IMG/VR virus record: IMGVR_UViG_3300046804_001132
Location: 8,091-72,090 of that record
Source of the DNA: a virus
Reading direction: 5' to 3' (one strand)
Length of the DNA stretch: 64,000 nt
The notes under the pieces are model-generated. The model made no database searches. It saw only the letters and a list, made by a program, of their open reading frames with translations, and was not told where the DNA came from. The position numbers and the translations under genes were made by a program. Below are positions 61,124-63,514 of this stretch, in pieces (the stretch's first letter is position 1; each line of letters opens with the position of its first letter).

Positions 61124-61335
61124 ACATGAATCCTATGCTATGGGCAAGTGTTTGTCAAGCGGATTTTGGGGATTTTTTGGGGATGTTCTTAATGCATCGT
61201 AAATGAGTTTTAGTTTTATTTTTATATAAAAGAGCGCCCCGGCAGCCTGGAAAAACCGTTGCAAATAAAGGGTTTTTGAGCAGTTTTACATCATGCTCAG
61301 GATGTGATGGGGGATATCCCCATCTATAGGTTGGC

Positions 61336-62331
61336 CTACGCGAAGGCAAGTTCCTTCACGATGCCAAGAAGGCGATTCTTCTCTGCGTTAGTCGCAGCAT
61401 CGAAACCGCTAGCAGCAGCAAGGACAGTTTCTGCATTACCTCCACGAGGATTGCGGAACCAGTCGATACGCTCAGTCAGAGCATTGTACACGCCCCACGC
61501 AGTACCCTTGATGCCAACCTCAGTCGGACCATTGTAGATATCGAACAGGGTGTCTACCTTGTTCTGCCACTTGGTCATAGCACCCTTGGTGTCTGCATCA
61601 GGCTGAGGGTATGCAGCCTTGATGATATCGAAGAACTTGTCACCATCGACAGACTGAGCAAACAGAGCAGCAGCCTGCTTGTCGAACTCGTCCATGTACT
61701 TGTGAGCAAGGCCAAGAGCCTCACGAGCAGCCTGAACCTTACCCTGCACCGTCTGAGTGTGACGGATACGGAAGGACTGCTTGGCACCCTTGCCACGAGC
61801 ACCCACAGCCATGTTGAGAGTATTCTGGCAGACAACACGCACAGGCGTGATGCTAGCCTGAATAGCAAGCGAGCCGTCGTGCGAGGTATGAACCAGAAGG
61901 TAGGTGTTCACCTTGTCGCTGACACCGTTAGGGTCGATGATGGACTCACGCTCAAGAGCAAGAGAACCGAACACGACCGTGCCATTCTTGATGCTGCCAG
62001 CAGTCTCCCAGCGAGCACCGTCAAGGATGTTGTCGCCAAAGGCAAACAGATCCTCATTCTGAAGAACGTTGTAACGCTCTCCCACAATGCCAAGAACGTC
62101 GTCGCCACCGTCAAACGGATTGGTGCGAACAGTTGCGAAGTAGTTCTTGGACGAACGTCCTGGGAGATCAATGTCCTCCAGACGCACATTCCAGCCAGCC
62201 AGATGAGCGACCGAAAGCATTTCCGCAGTCGTGACCTCAGAGTCAAGGACAGTGCCAAGACCGTGCCACGCAGGCTCGCGGAGGGATGCAAAGGAAGCCA
62301 TATCCCCGTACTGCTCAAGCATATGTGCCAT
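61336..62331 (-). CDS. DUF932-family phage/plasmid protein
   Basis: PAWHGLG, LQN...F, ETAG, SHDGS, PVRVVCQNT, IRHT, GTAWG.YNA. Confidence 0.85.
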   Translation of the reverse strand: MAHMLEQYGDMASFASLREPAWHGLGTVLDSEVTTAEMLSVAHLAGWNVRLEDIDLPGRSSKNYFATVRTNPFDGGDDVLGIVGERYNVLQNEDLFAFGDNILDGARWETAGSIKNGTVVFGSLALERESIIDPNGVSDKVNTYLLVHTSHDGSLAIQASITPVRVVCQNTLNMAVGARGKGAKQSFRIRHTQTVQGKVQAAREALGLAHKYMDEFDKQAAALFAQSVDGDKFFDIIKAAYPQPDADTKGAMTKWQNKVDTLFDIYNGPTEVGIKGTAWGVYNALTERIDWFRNPRGGNAETVLAAASGFDAATNAEKNRLLGIVKELAFA

Positions 62332-62491
62332 GTGTGTTACCTTTCGTTGTTGTTGGTAGGTAAATGATATGGGATAGGTCTGACACTTGTCAATAGATAA
62401 ATAGGGAAATATCGGACAGATTTGGGTGTGTCCTTAATCACATCGTAAACATTTGACAAATTAGTTTTGGCGTGCCGGGATTTTCCCTCAC

Positions 62492-62716
62492 AAAAAAGAG
62501 CCCCCCTAGGGAGCATGGGTGGGTGGGGGTATGCTCAACCTAGGGGGACGACTAGGGGAAAATGTAGGTGATCTGTTTTCAGTTGGATTCATCCAACCCC
62601 TACACTAAATGCACTTCCCAATGCATACCACTTCTGCGTTACAGTCTGTGGCCTTAGATCATCGAATACCTGCAAGTATCATGATCTGTCTACCCTCTTT
62701 TTGCAGCGTAGTAGAC
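62492..62716 (-). ncRNA. Candidate structured ncRNA downstream of tRNA-Asp
   Basis: Consecutive hairpins, complementary loops CTGCAA/TTGCAG, GNRA loop, terminal hairpin plus U tract. Confidence 0.5.
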
Positions 62717-62721
62717 TGGGG

Positions 62722-62794
62722 CGATTCTGATGGGATTCGAACCCACGACCTCTACCGTGACAGGGTAGCGAGCACTCCGCTGCTCTACAGAACC
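62722..62794 (-). tRNA. tRNA-Asp(GTC)
   Basis: GGTTCTG/CAGAATC, CTACC-CTGTCAC-GGTAG, GTTCGAATC on minus strand. Confidence 0.9.
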
Positions 62795-62799
62795 TTACG

Positions 62800-62871
62800 C
62801 ACGCTCCCCAAGATTCGAACTCAGACCTAGCGGGTTTGGAATCCGCTGTGCTACCGTTACACCAAGAGCGC
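62800..62871 (-). tRNA. tRNA-Trp(CCA)
   Basis: GCGCTCT/GGAGCGT, TT-CCA-AA loop, GTTCGAATC, G discriminator. Confidence 0.85.
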
Positions 62872-63040
62872 AGAGCGGTTAGGTTTATTCCCTTCCTTCA
62901 CCTAACCTGTTTGATGGATGGCGCATGAATATTTGTATCCTTTGGGGAACCACCCAAATGAGGAAGCGAGTCGATGTAGGCGATTTGCTGAATGGTATCC
63001 TTTTGACTTTTTCCTACGGGTCGCATATCCTCAAGTGTAT

Positions 63041-63115
63041 GATGGAGAGGTGGACTTGCACCACCACTTTATACTCATTTTATAGAGTCGCGTTTACTCT
63101 TTCGCCATCCCCATC
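63041..63115 (-). ncRNA. tRNA-like element with aberrant anticodon arm
   Basis: GATGGGGA/TCTCCATC stem, GCG/CGC D arm, GGTGG-TGCAAGT-CCACC T arm; 4-bp anticodon stem with 8-nt loop. Confidence 0.55.
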
Positions 63116-63153
63116 AAGTCTCTATGTAGTTGTTCTGTGATTGTATCACAGTT

Positions 63154-63294
63154 TTAGACGGTAGTCCACCTGTCTACCCCGTTCACATCCAGCAGGATGC
63201 GAGCATGACCGTTGGGATTGTCCACAATATCCTTGACAATGCCCGTGACCTTGGACTTCTTGGTAGTGAACGTGTCACCGATGCTGATCTTCAT
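63154..63294 (-). CDS. Small SH3/KOW-like protein (46 aa, not in ORF track)
   Basis: MKISIGDTFTTKKSKVTGIVKDI...RWTTV; TAATG coupling. Confidence 0.55.
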   Translation of the reverse strand: MKISIGDTFTTKKSKVTGIVKDIVDNPNGHARILLDVNGVDRWTTV

Positions 63295-63425
63295 TACTTC
63301 TTCCCCACAATCTGGAACGGAACGGCGGCAGTCTGATTGGTGGCCCCAATAAACGTGCCCTTGTCAGTACGCACGACAGCCTTGATGGTGTCGCCCCACT
63401 TCTCAGTACGAACGATGACGGACAT
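63294..63425 (-). CDS. Small protein (43 aa, not in ORF track)
   Basis: EKW...AVVRTDKGTFIGATNQT; promoter upstream. Confidence 0.55.
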   Translation of the reverse strand: MSVIVRTEKWGDTIKAVVRTDKGTFIGATNQTAAVPFQIVGKK

Positions 63426-63457
63426 TGTTACCCACTTTCTTTGTTGTTGTTGGTTGT

Positions 63458-63487
63458 ATTTTACAGGGTGGTGGGGGTACTTGTCAA
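63458..63487 (-). promoter_or_regulatory. Sigma-70 promoter overlapping a hairpin
   Basis: TTGACA-18 nt-TAAAAT on minus strand. Confidence 0.7.
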
Positions 63488-63514
63488 GACTTTCCCCCCA
63501 CCGTTATGAAGTTG

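What the first reader, a model, noticed from the sequence alone, without database searches (positions are those of the whole stretch)
62492..63151. About 650-nt non-coding, almost continuously structured minus-strand RNA with two embedded tRNAs
Seen (5' to 3' on minus): extended -10 at 63140-63148; tRNA-like element; long interrupted hairpin 62960-63032; hairpins 62941-62958 and 62877-62907; tRNA-Trp; tRNA-Asp; hairpins 62688-62716, 62656-62687, 62628-62651, 62609-62626 (GGGA tetraloop); a branched stem 62563-62604; and a terminal stem 62502-62547 with C-rich loop and U tract. No credible ORF. Established: large ornate phage ncRNAs such as GOLLD and ROOL occur beside tRNAs. Inference: one large RNA or a cluster of small RNAs released by tRNA processing, possibly a new class.
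Basis: partly seen in the sequence, partly recalled or inferred. Interest (0 to 1): 0.75.

Follow-up and report, generated by a model that had tools for sequence, protein, structure and literature searches.

The report
Modular phage tRNA and small-RNA cassette
This stretch of an uncultured freshwater phage is a protein-free transcription unit in which a conserved leader hairpin and a conserved end hairpin frame a changeable set of tRNAs and other folded RNA pieces, so it is a cluster of small RNAs and not one giant RNA.

Summary
Window 62492-63153 (minus strand) has no conserved ORF. It carries tRNA-Trp and tRNA-Asp, an extended -10 box and a U-tract hairpin, and it folds into the hairpins listed.

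The "one large ornate RNA" reading fails. Rfam finds only the two tRNAs. In 110 related loci the unit is modular:
- Of 31 distinct leader-to-end units, 12 have no tRNA, 13 have Asp only, and 6 have other sets.
- The closest relative (neighbour protein 99% identical) lacks 62551-62871 entirely.
- Contigs from other samples skip exactly the 171-nt insert (62550-62720) or exactly tRNA-Trp.

Two bookends are constant and covary:
- **M1**, a leader hairpin (62956-63038): 90% of cells paired against 41-53% in slid controls.
- **M9**, an end hairpin (62500-62549): 91% against 47-60%. It has an invariant GGUUGAGC...GCUCC and a C-rich loop.

M1 also occurs in GC-diverse phages and prophages, in three of them directly behind consensus promoters.

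Best reading: a stable-RNA cassette processed into tRNAs plus leader and trailer RNAs. No expression data exist. The 5' tRNA-like cloverleaf has one near-identical homologue and the 171-nt insert has none.

Novelty: new RNA motifs within a known kind. Interest is moderate.

The parts
63140..63168 (-). Promoter-like site: TGGACT, 17 nt, TG-extended TACAAT. It starts in the last codons of orf46, and the -10 box lies just behind its stop codon.
   Evidence: 9 of 12 matches, TG present. TGnTAnAAT is invariant in 10 of 10 aligned gaps. The box was found at this place in most related loci. This is a consensus match only; the transcription start is not mapped.
63039..63116 (-). tRNA-like cloverleaf inserted between the leader and M1. 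It has a 9-bp closing stem, a 3-bp arm, a 4-bp arm with an 8-nt loop, and a 5-bp arm with a 7-nt loop.
   Evidence: The MFE structure is a cloverleaf, z -3.9. ARAGORN does not call it and Rfam tRNA does not match at E up to 10. The only homologue is L041, near-identical, so there is no covariation test. It is flanked by the direct repeat ACTTGA.
62956..63038 (-). M1, the conserved leader hairpin: P1a (GAGGA/UCCUC), internal loop UAU/U, P1b (GCGA/UCGC), conserved ACC...(AU)CGAC, and a variable apex (45 nt here, 3-132 nt elsewhere).
   Evidence: Alignment A3, 36 sequences. 90.3% of cells are paired against 41-53% in slid controls. 10 of 14 pairs change on both sides. P1b is 100% paired. Model R1 scores 64.9 bits here and finds a single copy in the window. 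The exact core occurs in other phages and prophages.
62908..62955 (-). M2': a stem (62949-62956 with 62915-62922), or alternatively the local hairpin 62941-62958.
   Evidence: RNAalifold on 7 sequences. The 8-bp stem has changes on both sides at 2 pairs. Homologues were found only in L041-43, L115, L054, L005 and L116.
62877..62907 (-). M3': an 8-bp hairpin whose 15-nt purine-rich loop is conserved (6 of 7 sequences read GAAGGAAGGGAAUAA; L116 differs at two positions).
   Evidence: The stem has changes on both sides at 3 pairs. The loop is the same in 6 of the 7 sequences.
62799..62871 (-). tRNA-Trp (CCA), canonical, with an A31-C39 mismatch.
   Evidence: 46.2 bits. It is missing as an exact 77-nt unit in contigs of runs X3 and X7 and in L041-L043.
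62720..62794 (-). tRNA-Asp (GTC), the commonest cargo of the unit in relatives.
   Evidence: 59.9 bits. It is present in 18 of 31 distinct units: 13 Asp only, 3 Trp+Asp, 1 Asp+Thr+Glu, plus the window.
62550..62719 (-). M8: a 171-nt insert folding into five hairpins, seen only in this strain. The loops of the first two hairpins carry complementary hexamers (CUGCAA / UUGCAG).
   Evidence: MFE. Contigs of X3 and X7 join 62549/62550 directly to 62721. nhmmer finds no homologue in 110 loci. Two exact-word scans of viral contigs found only a chance coding hit.
62492..62549 (-). M9, the conserved end hairpin: outer stem GUCCCCCUAGG/CCUAGGGGGGC, a UU bulge, an invariant GAGC/GCUC core and the C-rich loop ACCCCCACCCACCC. 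A U tract follows at 62492-62499.
   Evidence: Alignment A4, 35 sequences. 91.0% of cells are paired against 47-60% in slid controls. 11 of 17 pairs change on both sides. The four core pairs never vary. The site is terminator-like.

Best explanation
The stretch is a non-coding stable-RNA cassette of an uncultured freshwater actinophage-like virus.

Structure (shown). It lies on one strand, between a conserved extended -10 box directly behind the small gene orf46 and a conserved end hairpin with a U tract. In order it holds:
- a promoter-proximal leader hairpin (M1);
- accreted folded modules: a tRNA-like cloverleaf, M2' and M3';
- two canonical tRNAs (Trp, Asp);
- a strain-specific 171-nt five-hairpin insert (M8);
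- the end hairpin (M9).
Also shown: the anatomy, the conservation and covariation of M1 and M9, and the cassette-wise gain and loss of everything between them.

Mechanism (inferred).
- A primary transcript of about 640 nt is cut at the tRNA ends by the host tRNA-processing enzymes (RNase P at 5' ends, 3' trimming).
- This yields the two tRNAs, a 5' RNA of about 260 nt that carries M1 to M3', and a 3' RNA of about 230 nt that carries M8 and M9.
- M1 is a portable cis element of transcript 5' ends. It probably acts in 5'-end protection or as a factor-binding site at the start of early transcripts.
- M9 stops transcription and protects the 3' end.
- M9's invariant C-rich loop and M3's conserved purine-rich loop are the likely contact surfaces of the left-over RNAs. 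What they bind is unknown.
For: Non-coding, with two real tRNAs.

Promoter box. It is invariant in 10 of 10 aligned gaps.

M1.
- It covaries: 36 sequences, 90% paired against 41-53% in slid controls, 0 of 500 shuffles reaching the observed score.
- In lineages with GC from 37% to 68% the outer stem is rewritten yet stays complementary. The arms fully pair over 14 bp in L124, 11 bp in L127 and 10 bp in L125 (read).
- In L129 the hairpin starts about 8 nt after a 12-of-12 TTGACA-18-TATAAT promoter and precedes a protein gene. In L127 it starts about 7 nt after TTGCTA-16-TATAAT.

M9. It covaries: 35 sequences, 91% paired against 47-60% in slid controls.

Modularity.
- 31 distinct M1-to-M9 units carry 0 to 3 tRNAs.
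- L041 (neighbour protein 99% identical) and L043 join 62872 to 62550 with 4 nt between.
- Contigs from other samples skip exactly M8 or exactly tRNA-Trp.

Synteny. M1 follows orf46 even where the block is inverted relative to orf331.

Precedents.
- T4 makes two small RNAs of unknown role from its tRNA region (passage in PMC3014915).
- A 3' spacer of an E. coli tRNA precursor acts as an sRNA sponge (passage in PMC8383071).
Against: - No transcript data of any kind exist. The promoter and terminator are consensus matches only.
- Fold z-scores are modest, -1.3 to -3.9.
- The cloverleaf has one near-identical homologue and M8 has none, so their folds are untested. They may be debris.
- 12 of 31 units carry no ARAGORN tRNA. 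So supplying tRNA cannot be the unit's only purpose, and may not be its main one.
- In at least 5 of 35 relatives (L048, L052, L003, L012, L105) no U run follows M9 (read), so M9 is not simply a terminator.
- In the Spongiactinospora prophage M1 lies between convergent ORFs and not behind a recognisable promoter.
- In the window's own family about 25 nt of A-rich leader precede M1, so M1 is not at the very 5' end there.
- The covariation counts are not phylogeny-aware. By the tool's own caveat, related sequences can beat the shuffles without any structure. The slid controls are the stronger support.
Confidence: 0.6

Rival explanations
1. The conserved scaffold (M1, an M2/M3-type module and M9) is itself the functional non-coding RNA, for example a decoy or sponge for a host or phage factor. 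On this reading the tRNAs are hitch-hikers that use its promoter.
For: 12 of 31 distinct units have no tRNA yet keep intact, covarying M1 and M9. Several tRNA-free lineages exist: L041/L043, L069/L101, L068/L009 and L094. The M3' loop is conserved (6 of 7 identical) and the M9 loop is near-invariant in sequence. M1 always follows the small SH3/KOW-like protein orf46.
Against: Excising the tRNAs would cut the scaffold in two, so it cannot need continuity. The shortest units (L095, L057, L049, L084; about 210-225 nt) are just M1, a small pseudoknot, tRNA-Asp and M9, with no M2 or M3. Elsewhere M1 serves as the 5' leader of protein genes. No target was found.
Confidence: 0.25
2. One large RNA with tertiary structure, of the GOLLD/ROOL kind, spans the whole 650 nt, and the tRNAs are part of or beside it.
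For: The stretch is long, non-coding, densely self-pairing and next to tRNAs in a phage. That GOLLD and ROOL have this habit is recalled, not tested.
Against: No Rfam match to GOLLD, ROOL or any family but tRNA at E up to 10. Relatives with 95-99% identical neighbour genes lack 320 of the 650 nt. The unit varies from 208 to 630 nt with different contents. The whole-stretch z-score is only -2.15.
Confidence: 0.03
3. The hairpins act in DNA and not in RNA. The site would then be a recombination or insertion hot spot, or a replication or packaging signal, where single-stranded DNA hairpins are recognised and cassettes are exchanged.
For: Different inserts sit at the same point at the 5' foot of M1, each flanked by short direct repeats: ACTTGA, CTTGAGGA, CTTGG. 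Cassettes have exact borders. Covariation cannot tell an RNA hairpin from a DNA one.
Against: A promoter box lies in front, and same-strand tRNAs and a U-tract hairpin lie behind. Many cells in M9 are G-U pairs (for example 10 UG at one pair, 12 at another), which pair in RNA of this strand only. In other phages M1 lies in the 5' leaders of genes. No recombinase gene is adjacent.
Confidence: 0.05

Closest known systems
Phage T4 tRNA region with the small RNAs RNAC and RNAD
   Same: A phage locus where small stable RNAs of unknown role are made from the same region as tRNAs (passages read in PMC3014915 and PMC9697503).
   Different: There is no sequence relation. Here the non-tRNA parts include a leader and an end hairpin conserved across dozens of relatives. 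The cargo is exchanged cassette-wise, and some units have no tRNA at all.
3' external transcribed spacer of the E. coli glyW-cysT-leuZ precursor (3'ETS-leuZ)
   Same: A piece left over from tRNA processing, ending in the operon's terminator, that acts as an RNA in its own right (passage read in PMC8383071).
   Different: That spacer is a host RNA with known sRNA partners. Here no partner is known. The trailer's conserved feature is a C-rich hairpin loop.
GOLLD and ROOL large ornate RNAs
   Same: They are often phage-borne and lie beside tRNAs (recalled).
   Different: No covariance-model match. There is no conserved large core. Here only two short hairpins are constant.
Promoter-proximal RNA elements of lambdoid phages (nut boxB, HK022 put) and 5'-terminal protective stem-loops
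   Same: These are structured RNAs placed just after a promoter that act in cis on the transcript or the polymerase (recalled). M1 has this position in three other phage loci.
   Different: No sequence likeness was tested or seen. No antitermination partner was identified. The function of M1 is inferred from position only.
C-rich-loop small RNAs of Gram-positive bacteria (actinobacterial 6C RNA, RsaE/RoxS)
   Same: A hairpin loop made of runs of C, conserved in sequence (recalled).
   Different: No Rfam match to 6C or any such family. M9 is a single hairpin at the end of a tRNA unit. No G-rich target is known.

Membership tests
GOLLD (Rfam) / ROOL (Rfam) | Match to the family covariance model. 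| tested here: not met
   cmscan at gathering score on the whole window. cmscan at E up to 10 on 62300-63500 and on 7 related loci at E up to 5. Only tRNA, and one sub-threshold mascRNA hit that lies on tRNA-Asp.
GOLLD / ROOL | A large multi-stem core conserved among homologues. | tested here: not met
   Units range from 208 to 630 nt with different contents. L041 and L043 lack 62551-62871.
tRNA (RF00005) | Model match and cloverleaf, for 62720-62794 and 62799-62871. | tested here: met
   59.9 and 46.2 bits against a gathering score of 29. ARAGORN calls Asp-GTC and Trp-CCA.
tRNA (RF00005) | Model match, for the 5' cloverleaf 63039-63116. | tested here: not met
   No hit at E up to 10 and no ARAGORN call. 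Only the MFE fold is cloverleaf-shaped.
tmRNA | tRNA-like domain plus tag reading frame. | tested here: not met
   ARAGORN finds no tmRNA in the window. No Rfam tmRNA match.
Intrinsic terminator (for M9) | G+C-rich stem followed directly by a run of U. | tested here: inconclusive
   Met in the window. In at least 5 of 35 aligned relatives no U run follows (read). The loop and core are conserved in sequence, which a plain terminator does not need.
Sigma-70-type extended -10 promoter | TGnTATAAT-like box at a fixed place before the RNA. | tested here: met
   TG-A-TACAAT at 63148-63140. TGnTAnAAT is invariant in 10 of 10 gaps. Activity is not testable with these tools.
Small stable RNAs co-made with phage tRNAs (T4 RNAC/RNAD kind) | Non-tRNA RNA on the same strand and in the same promoter-to-terminator unit as tRNAs. 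| tested here: met
   Shown by anatomy only.
Small stable RNAs co-made with phage tRNAs (T4 RNAC/RNAD kind) | Accumulation of the RNA in infected cells. | not testable with these tools
   No RNA run is listed for this DNA. The host is uncultured.
6C RNA (Rfam) | Match to the family model (two C-rich-loop hairpins). | tested here: not met
   No match.

The most novel reading that the evidence does not exclude
M1 and M9 are the fixed ends of a dedicated expression dock into which small structured-RNA genes insert and excise as discrete cassettes. The cargo includes tRNAs, non-canonical tRNA-like RNAs, hairpin modules and the 171-nt M8. Short target duplications flank the inserts. This would be an integron-like system for RNA genes in phages, and its left-over leader and trailer RNAs would act as decoys against host factors or defences.
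Probability: 0.12. Interest if true: 0.8.

Novelty: new variant of a known kind. Interest (0 to 1): 0.55.

Why it matters
Phage tRNA loci are usually annotated as tRNAs plus spacer. Here the spacers are the conserved part.

- A leader hairpin and an end hairpin covary across dozens of uncultured aquatic phages, while the tRNAs between them are optional.
- The leader hairpin also turns up behind strong promoters in unrelated, GC-diverse phages and in actinobacterial prophages. That makes it a candidate general 5' element of phage early transcripts with no Rfam family.
- The exact cassette borders give a clean natural experiment on how phages gain and lose tRNA genes.

None of this overturns known biology. 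It adds testable RNA motifs and a well-resolved example of modular evolution of a stable-RNA operon.

Tried and rejected
**Known RNA families.** Three cmscan runs gave nothing but tRNA.

**Cultured phages.**
- blastn of the stretch against 50,697 phage records hit only the tRNA-Asp part, in 7 records at 10% coverage or less.
- A 49-nt minimal M1 found no match at E up to 10.

**Repeats.** The stretch has no other copy in the window. M1 and the M9 loop each occur once.

**Pattern scan for M9 in viral contigs.** It returned 8 stretches. Five are loci already known. The three new ones (L038-L040) are chance hits in G+C-rich coding DNA.

**M8.**
- nhmmer found nothing in 110 loci.
- Two exact-word scans gave one chance coding hit (L121) and nothing.
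- Its weak likeness to an element behind tRNA-Asp in L019 and L005, seen in alignment A1, was not confirmed by nhmmer.

**Expression.** No RNA holder is listed among the 24 runs, so nothing can be said about transcription. In one search, bins 62569-62691 had no cover in the four runs. I use only the contigs that join across that part.

**M1 in bacteria.** Model R1 matched one of the 151 genomes searched, the centre genome itself (Spongiactinospora rosea); the genomes are drawn from that genome's class. It was not found in the others searched.

**K-turn reading of M1's internal loops.** Considered by eye and dropped, because the strands do not fit the consensus as I recall it.

**Peptide from the AUG inside M1.** Rejected. 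Frame and length change with the variable apex (11 codons in L095, 17 in L002, 42 here).

**orf46.** No Pfam family at E up to 0.1. The fold search gave only weak E-values of 0.06-0.4 despite TM 0.75-0.79. 'RNA-binding' is therefore only a lead.

**Partner for the C-rich loop of M9.** None is conserved. The G run at 63494-63502 is complementary, but it is already paired locally and is absent from L002.

**Supplements.** Supplementary files of the papers were not consulted.

Full report
**What the window is.** The window is 64 kb of a 72-kb IMG/VR virus record, estimated 67% complete. It carries 11 tRNA genes. The neighbour gene orf331 (61336-62331, minus strand) is a DUF932 protein. Its best cultured relatives are Streptomyces phages at 55-56% identity. 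DNA runs that hold the stretch are labelled freshwater or aquatic metagenomes. I therefore treat it as an uncultured aquatic actinophage-like virus. The host is not known.

**The observation.**
- tRNA-Asp(GTC) lies at 62720-62794 and tRNA-Trp(CCA) at 62799-62871, both on the minus strand.
- TG-A-TACAAT lies at 63148-63140, with a weak -35 inside the last codons of orf46.
- 63039-63116 folds as a cloverleaf (z -3.9).
- The interrupted hairpin lies at 62960-63032 and a hairpin at 62877-62907. Five hairpins fill 62563-62716. The terminal stem at 62500-62549 is followed by a U tract.
- No minus-strand ORF inside the region exceeds 42 aa, and relatives share no ORF.

Folding energies exceed shuffles only moderately. 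The z-scores are -2.6 (5' part), -3.3 (3' part) and -2.15 (whole stretch, 20 shuffles). Some parts are unremarkable on their own: M1 -1.8, M2'/M3' -1.3. Thermodynamics alone would not carry the claim. The comparative data do.

**Relatives.** I searched with orf331. This fetched 30 loci from viral contigs and 80 from metagenome contigs, the best 80 of 221. A map of motifs and tRNAs upstream of orf331, and on both strands of all 110 loci, shows the same non-coding unit in about half of them. It is always directly behind the small gene orf46, also where the orf46 block is inverted relative to orf331 (L006, L008, L017-20, L063, L106-112).

**Two constant bookends.**

*M1 (62956-63038)* is a hairpin with these parts:
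- helix P1a (GGGGA/UCCCC; GAGGA/UCCUC in the window);
- an internal loop UAU/U;
- helix P1b (GCGA/UCGC);
- invariant ACC...(AU)CGAC;
- an apex of 3 to 132 nt.

On 36 distinct sequences 90.3% of cells pair, against 41-53% when the partner is slid by 1 to 3 columns. 10 of 14 pairs change on both sides, P1b is 100% paired, and no shuffle of 500 reaches the observed score.

*M9 (62500-62549)* is a hairpin with a variable outer stem, a UU bulge, an invariant GAGC/GCUC core and a C-rich loop (CCCACCCAC). On 35 sequences 91.0% pair against 47-60% slid, and 11 of 17 pairs change on both sides.

The shuffles ignore relatedness, as the tool warns. The slid controls and the many G-C to A-U exchanges are the better evidence. 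Abundant G-U cells in M9 favour RNA of this strand over DNA.

**Everything between the bookends is optional.** The 31 distinct M1-to-M9 units break down as follows:

| Cargo | Units |
|---|---|
| no ARAGORN tRNA | 12 |
| tRNA-Asp only | 13 |
| Trp+Asp (the window is one) | 3 |
| Trp only | 1 |
| Trp+Tyr | 1 |
| Asp+Thr+Glu | 1 |

Lengths run from 208 to 630 nt. The shortest units (L095, L057, L049, L084) are M1, a small pseudoknot, tRNA-Asp and M9.

The closest relatives are the most telling.
- L041 (orf331 99% identical, flanking DNA 88-92%) and L043 join window position 62872 to 62550 with 4 nt between. They lack both tRNAs and M8.
- L042 has an unrelated 80-nt hairpin module there instead.
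- Contigs of other samples make exact joints. X3 and X7 join 62549/62550 to 62721, so M8 is absent. X3 and X7 join 62793 to 62871, so tRNA-Trp is absent. X7 joins 62977 to 63016, with the apex of M1 replaced by 7 letters.

So the pieces are discrete cassettes whose borders are the tRNA ends and the feet of the hairpins.

**Window-specific parts.**
- The 5' cloverleaf is shared only with L041, with one substitution. It is not recognised as tRNA.
- M2' and M3' occur in seven sequences. M3' has a covarying stem, and its purine-rich loop GAAGGAAGGGAAUAA is the same in six of the seven.
- M8 has no homologue anywhere I could search. Its fold is unsupported by comparison, including the complementary hexamers in its first two loops that another first-stage note describes.

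**M1 is wider than this phage family.** The exact core with a gap of 3-33 nt occurs in the following places:
- two Spongiactinospora genomes, in a region that IMG/VR lists as a provirus;
- a Gemmatimonadaceae MAG;
- four further viral contigs with GC from 37% to about 60%.

There the outer stem is entirely different yet fully complementary: 14 bp in L124, 11 bp in L127, 10 bp in L125.

Its position in those contigs is informative.
- In L129 the hairpin begins about 8 nt after a 12-of-12 TTGACA-18-TATAAT promoter and leads into a homologue of the window's orf158.
- In L127 and L128 it begins about 7 nt after TTGCTA-16-TATAAT and leads into another protein gene.
- In L125 a Shine-Dalgarno box and an ATG follow it.

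M1 is thus a portable element of transcript 5' ends, not a tRNA-specific leader. Against this, in the Spongiactinospora provirus it lies between convergent ORFs. Model R1 matched only the centre genome among the 151 genomes searched, drawn from that genome's class. It therefore looks phage-borne and not a host housekeeping element.

**Mechanism.**

Shown:
- one strand, a promoter box, a conserved leader hairpin, cargo, and a conserved end hairpin with a U tract;
- cassette-wise turnover of the cargo.

Inferred:
- A transcript of about 640 nt is cut at the tRNAs by the host's tRNA-processing enzymes. This releases the tRNAs, a 5' RNA (leader, cloverleaf, M1-M3') and a 3' RNA (M8, M9).
- M1 most likely protects the 5' end or binds a factor at the start of early transcripts.
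- M9 ends transcription and guards the 3' end. Its conserved loop, and the lack of a U tract in at least five relatives, suggest a further sequence-specific role.

Whether tRNA supply or the left-over RNAs is the main product is open. The 12 tRNA-free units argue for the RNAs. The minimal Asp-only units and M1's use before protein genes argue for a generic expression frame. I put 0.6 on the cassette reading and 0.25 on 'the scaffold is the product'.

**Comparison with what is known.**
- The nearest analogues are the T4 tRNA region, which also yields two small RNAs of unknown role (passages in PMC3014915 and PMC9697503), and the E. coli 3' external transcribed spacer that acts as a sponge (passage in PMC8383071).
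- Likeness of M1 to put/nut-type elements, and of M9 to C-rich-loop sRNAs, is by position or composition only, and is recalled rather than tested.

**Verdict.** The novelty lies in two covarying motifs, plus a pseudoknot noticed nearby, that have no Rfam match, and in an unusually clear case of cassette-wise evolution of a phage stable-RNA unit. Transcription is untested. Interest is 0.55.

Noticed in passing
window 61278-61305 (-), and many related loci: A small H-type pseudoknot motif (M6): nnnUC-CU-GRGCA-U-GAnnn-(A)AAAC-UGCYC. There are 69 distinct anchored instances. Stem 1 is 83% paired (shuffles 68%) and stem 2 is 97% paired (shuffles 87%), with G-C/A-U exchanges in both. In the window it lies about 30 nt behind the stop of orf331. 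In relatives it often ends 3-5 nt before the 5' end of a tRNA or tRNA-like RNA. It might cap the upstream RNA after RNase P cleavage. It has no Rfam match.
   Followed up: partly
L011:3591-3671, L006, L007, L012, L017, L025, L047, L056, L071, L074, L087, L106, L109, L111, L116: Relatives carry a non-canonical tRNA-Trp(CCA)-like cloverleaf in the slot of the window's tRNA-Trp. It has a D arm of 4 bp with a 3-nt loop UGG, a 6-7-bp anticodon stem and a canonical T arm. ARAGORN and Rfam do not call it. The helices are 83-99% paired with compensatory changes in 15 distinct sequences.
   Followed up: partly
window 63033-63038 and 63117-63122 (-); L042/L043; L010: Different inserts at the same point, the 5' foot of M1, are each flanked by a short direct repeat: ACTTGA round the cloverleaf (window, L041), CTTGAGGA round a hairpin (L042, L043) and CTTGG round another tRNA-like element (L010). 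These look like target duplications.
   Followed up: no
window 63154-63294 (-): orf46 is a real, conserved protein of about 45 aa (34 distinct homologues). It is always directly 5' of the promoter box and M1. The AlphaFold model has pLDDT 93.8 and is a four-stranded SH3/KOW-like barrel. Its best PDB likenesses are the KOW domain of ribosomal protein eS4 and the N-domain of aIF5A (TM 0.75-0.79, E 0.06-0.4). It has no Pfam family.
   Followed up: partly
L122, L124 (=L126), L123, L125, L127-L129: The exact M1 core occurs in Spongiactinospora proviruses, a Gemmatimonadaceae MAG and GC-diverse viral contigs. In three of them it lies directly behind consensus promoters and before protein genes.
   Followed up: partly
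L041:1173-1190, L056, L017-L020, L106-L110: In these lineages the invariant GGUUGAGC of the end hairpin M9 also forms the apex of M1 (CUAGG-UUGAG-CCUAG).
   Followed up: no
window 63466-63502 (-): GGUGGGGGG (63494-63502) pairs with ACCCCCACCACCC (63466-63478) around the -35 TTGACA of the orf43-orf46 promoter. The C-rich arm is nearly the same as the loop of M9. It is not conserved in L002.
   Followed up: no
window 62364-62480 (-): Between M9 and orf331 lie two conserved boxes. One is CCCGGC...TTTGTCAAG...TTTACGATGTGATTAAG. The other is a TTGACA -35 embedded in the palindrome TGACAAnTGTCA, which looks like an operator. This overlaps another first-stage note on repeated intergenic modules.
   Followed up: no
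L069:2100-2180, L071, L042:1146-1225: A further shared module (GACAGYCUAAGUCWUAGACAGCGUG...GACGUACAUAGCA) sits behind M1 in L069 and L071 but behind M3' in L042. It is another piece that moves within the unit.
   Followed up: no
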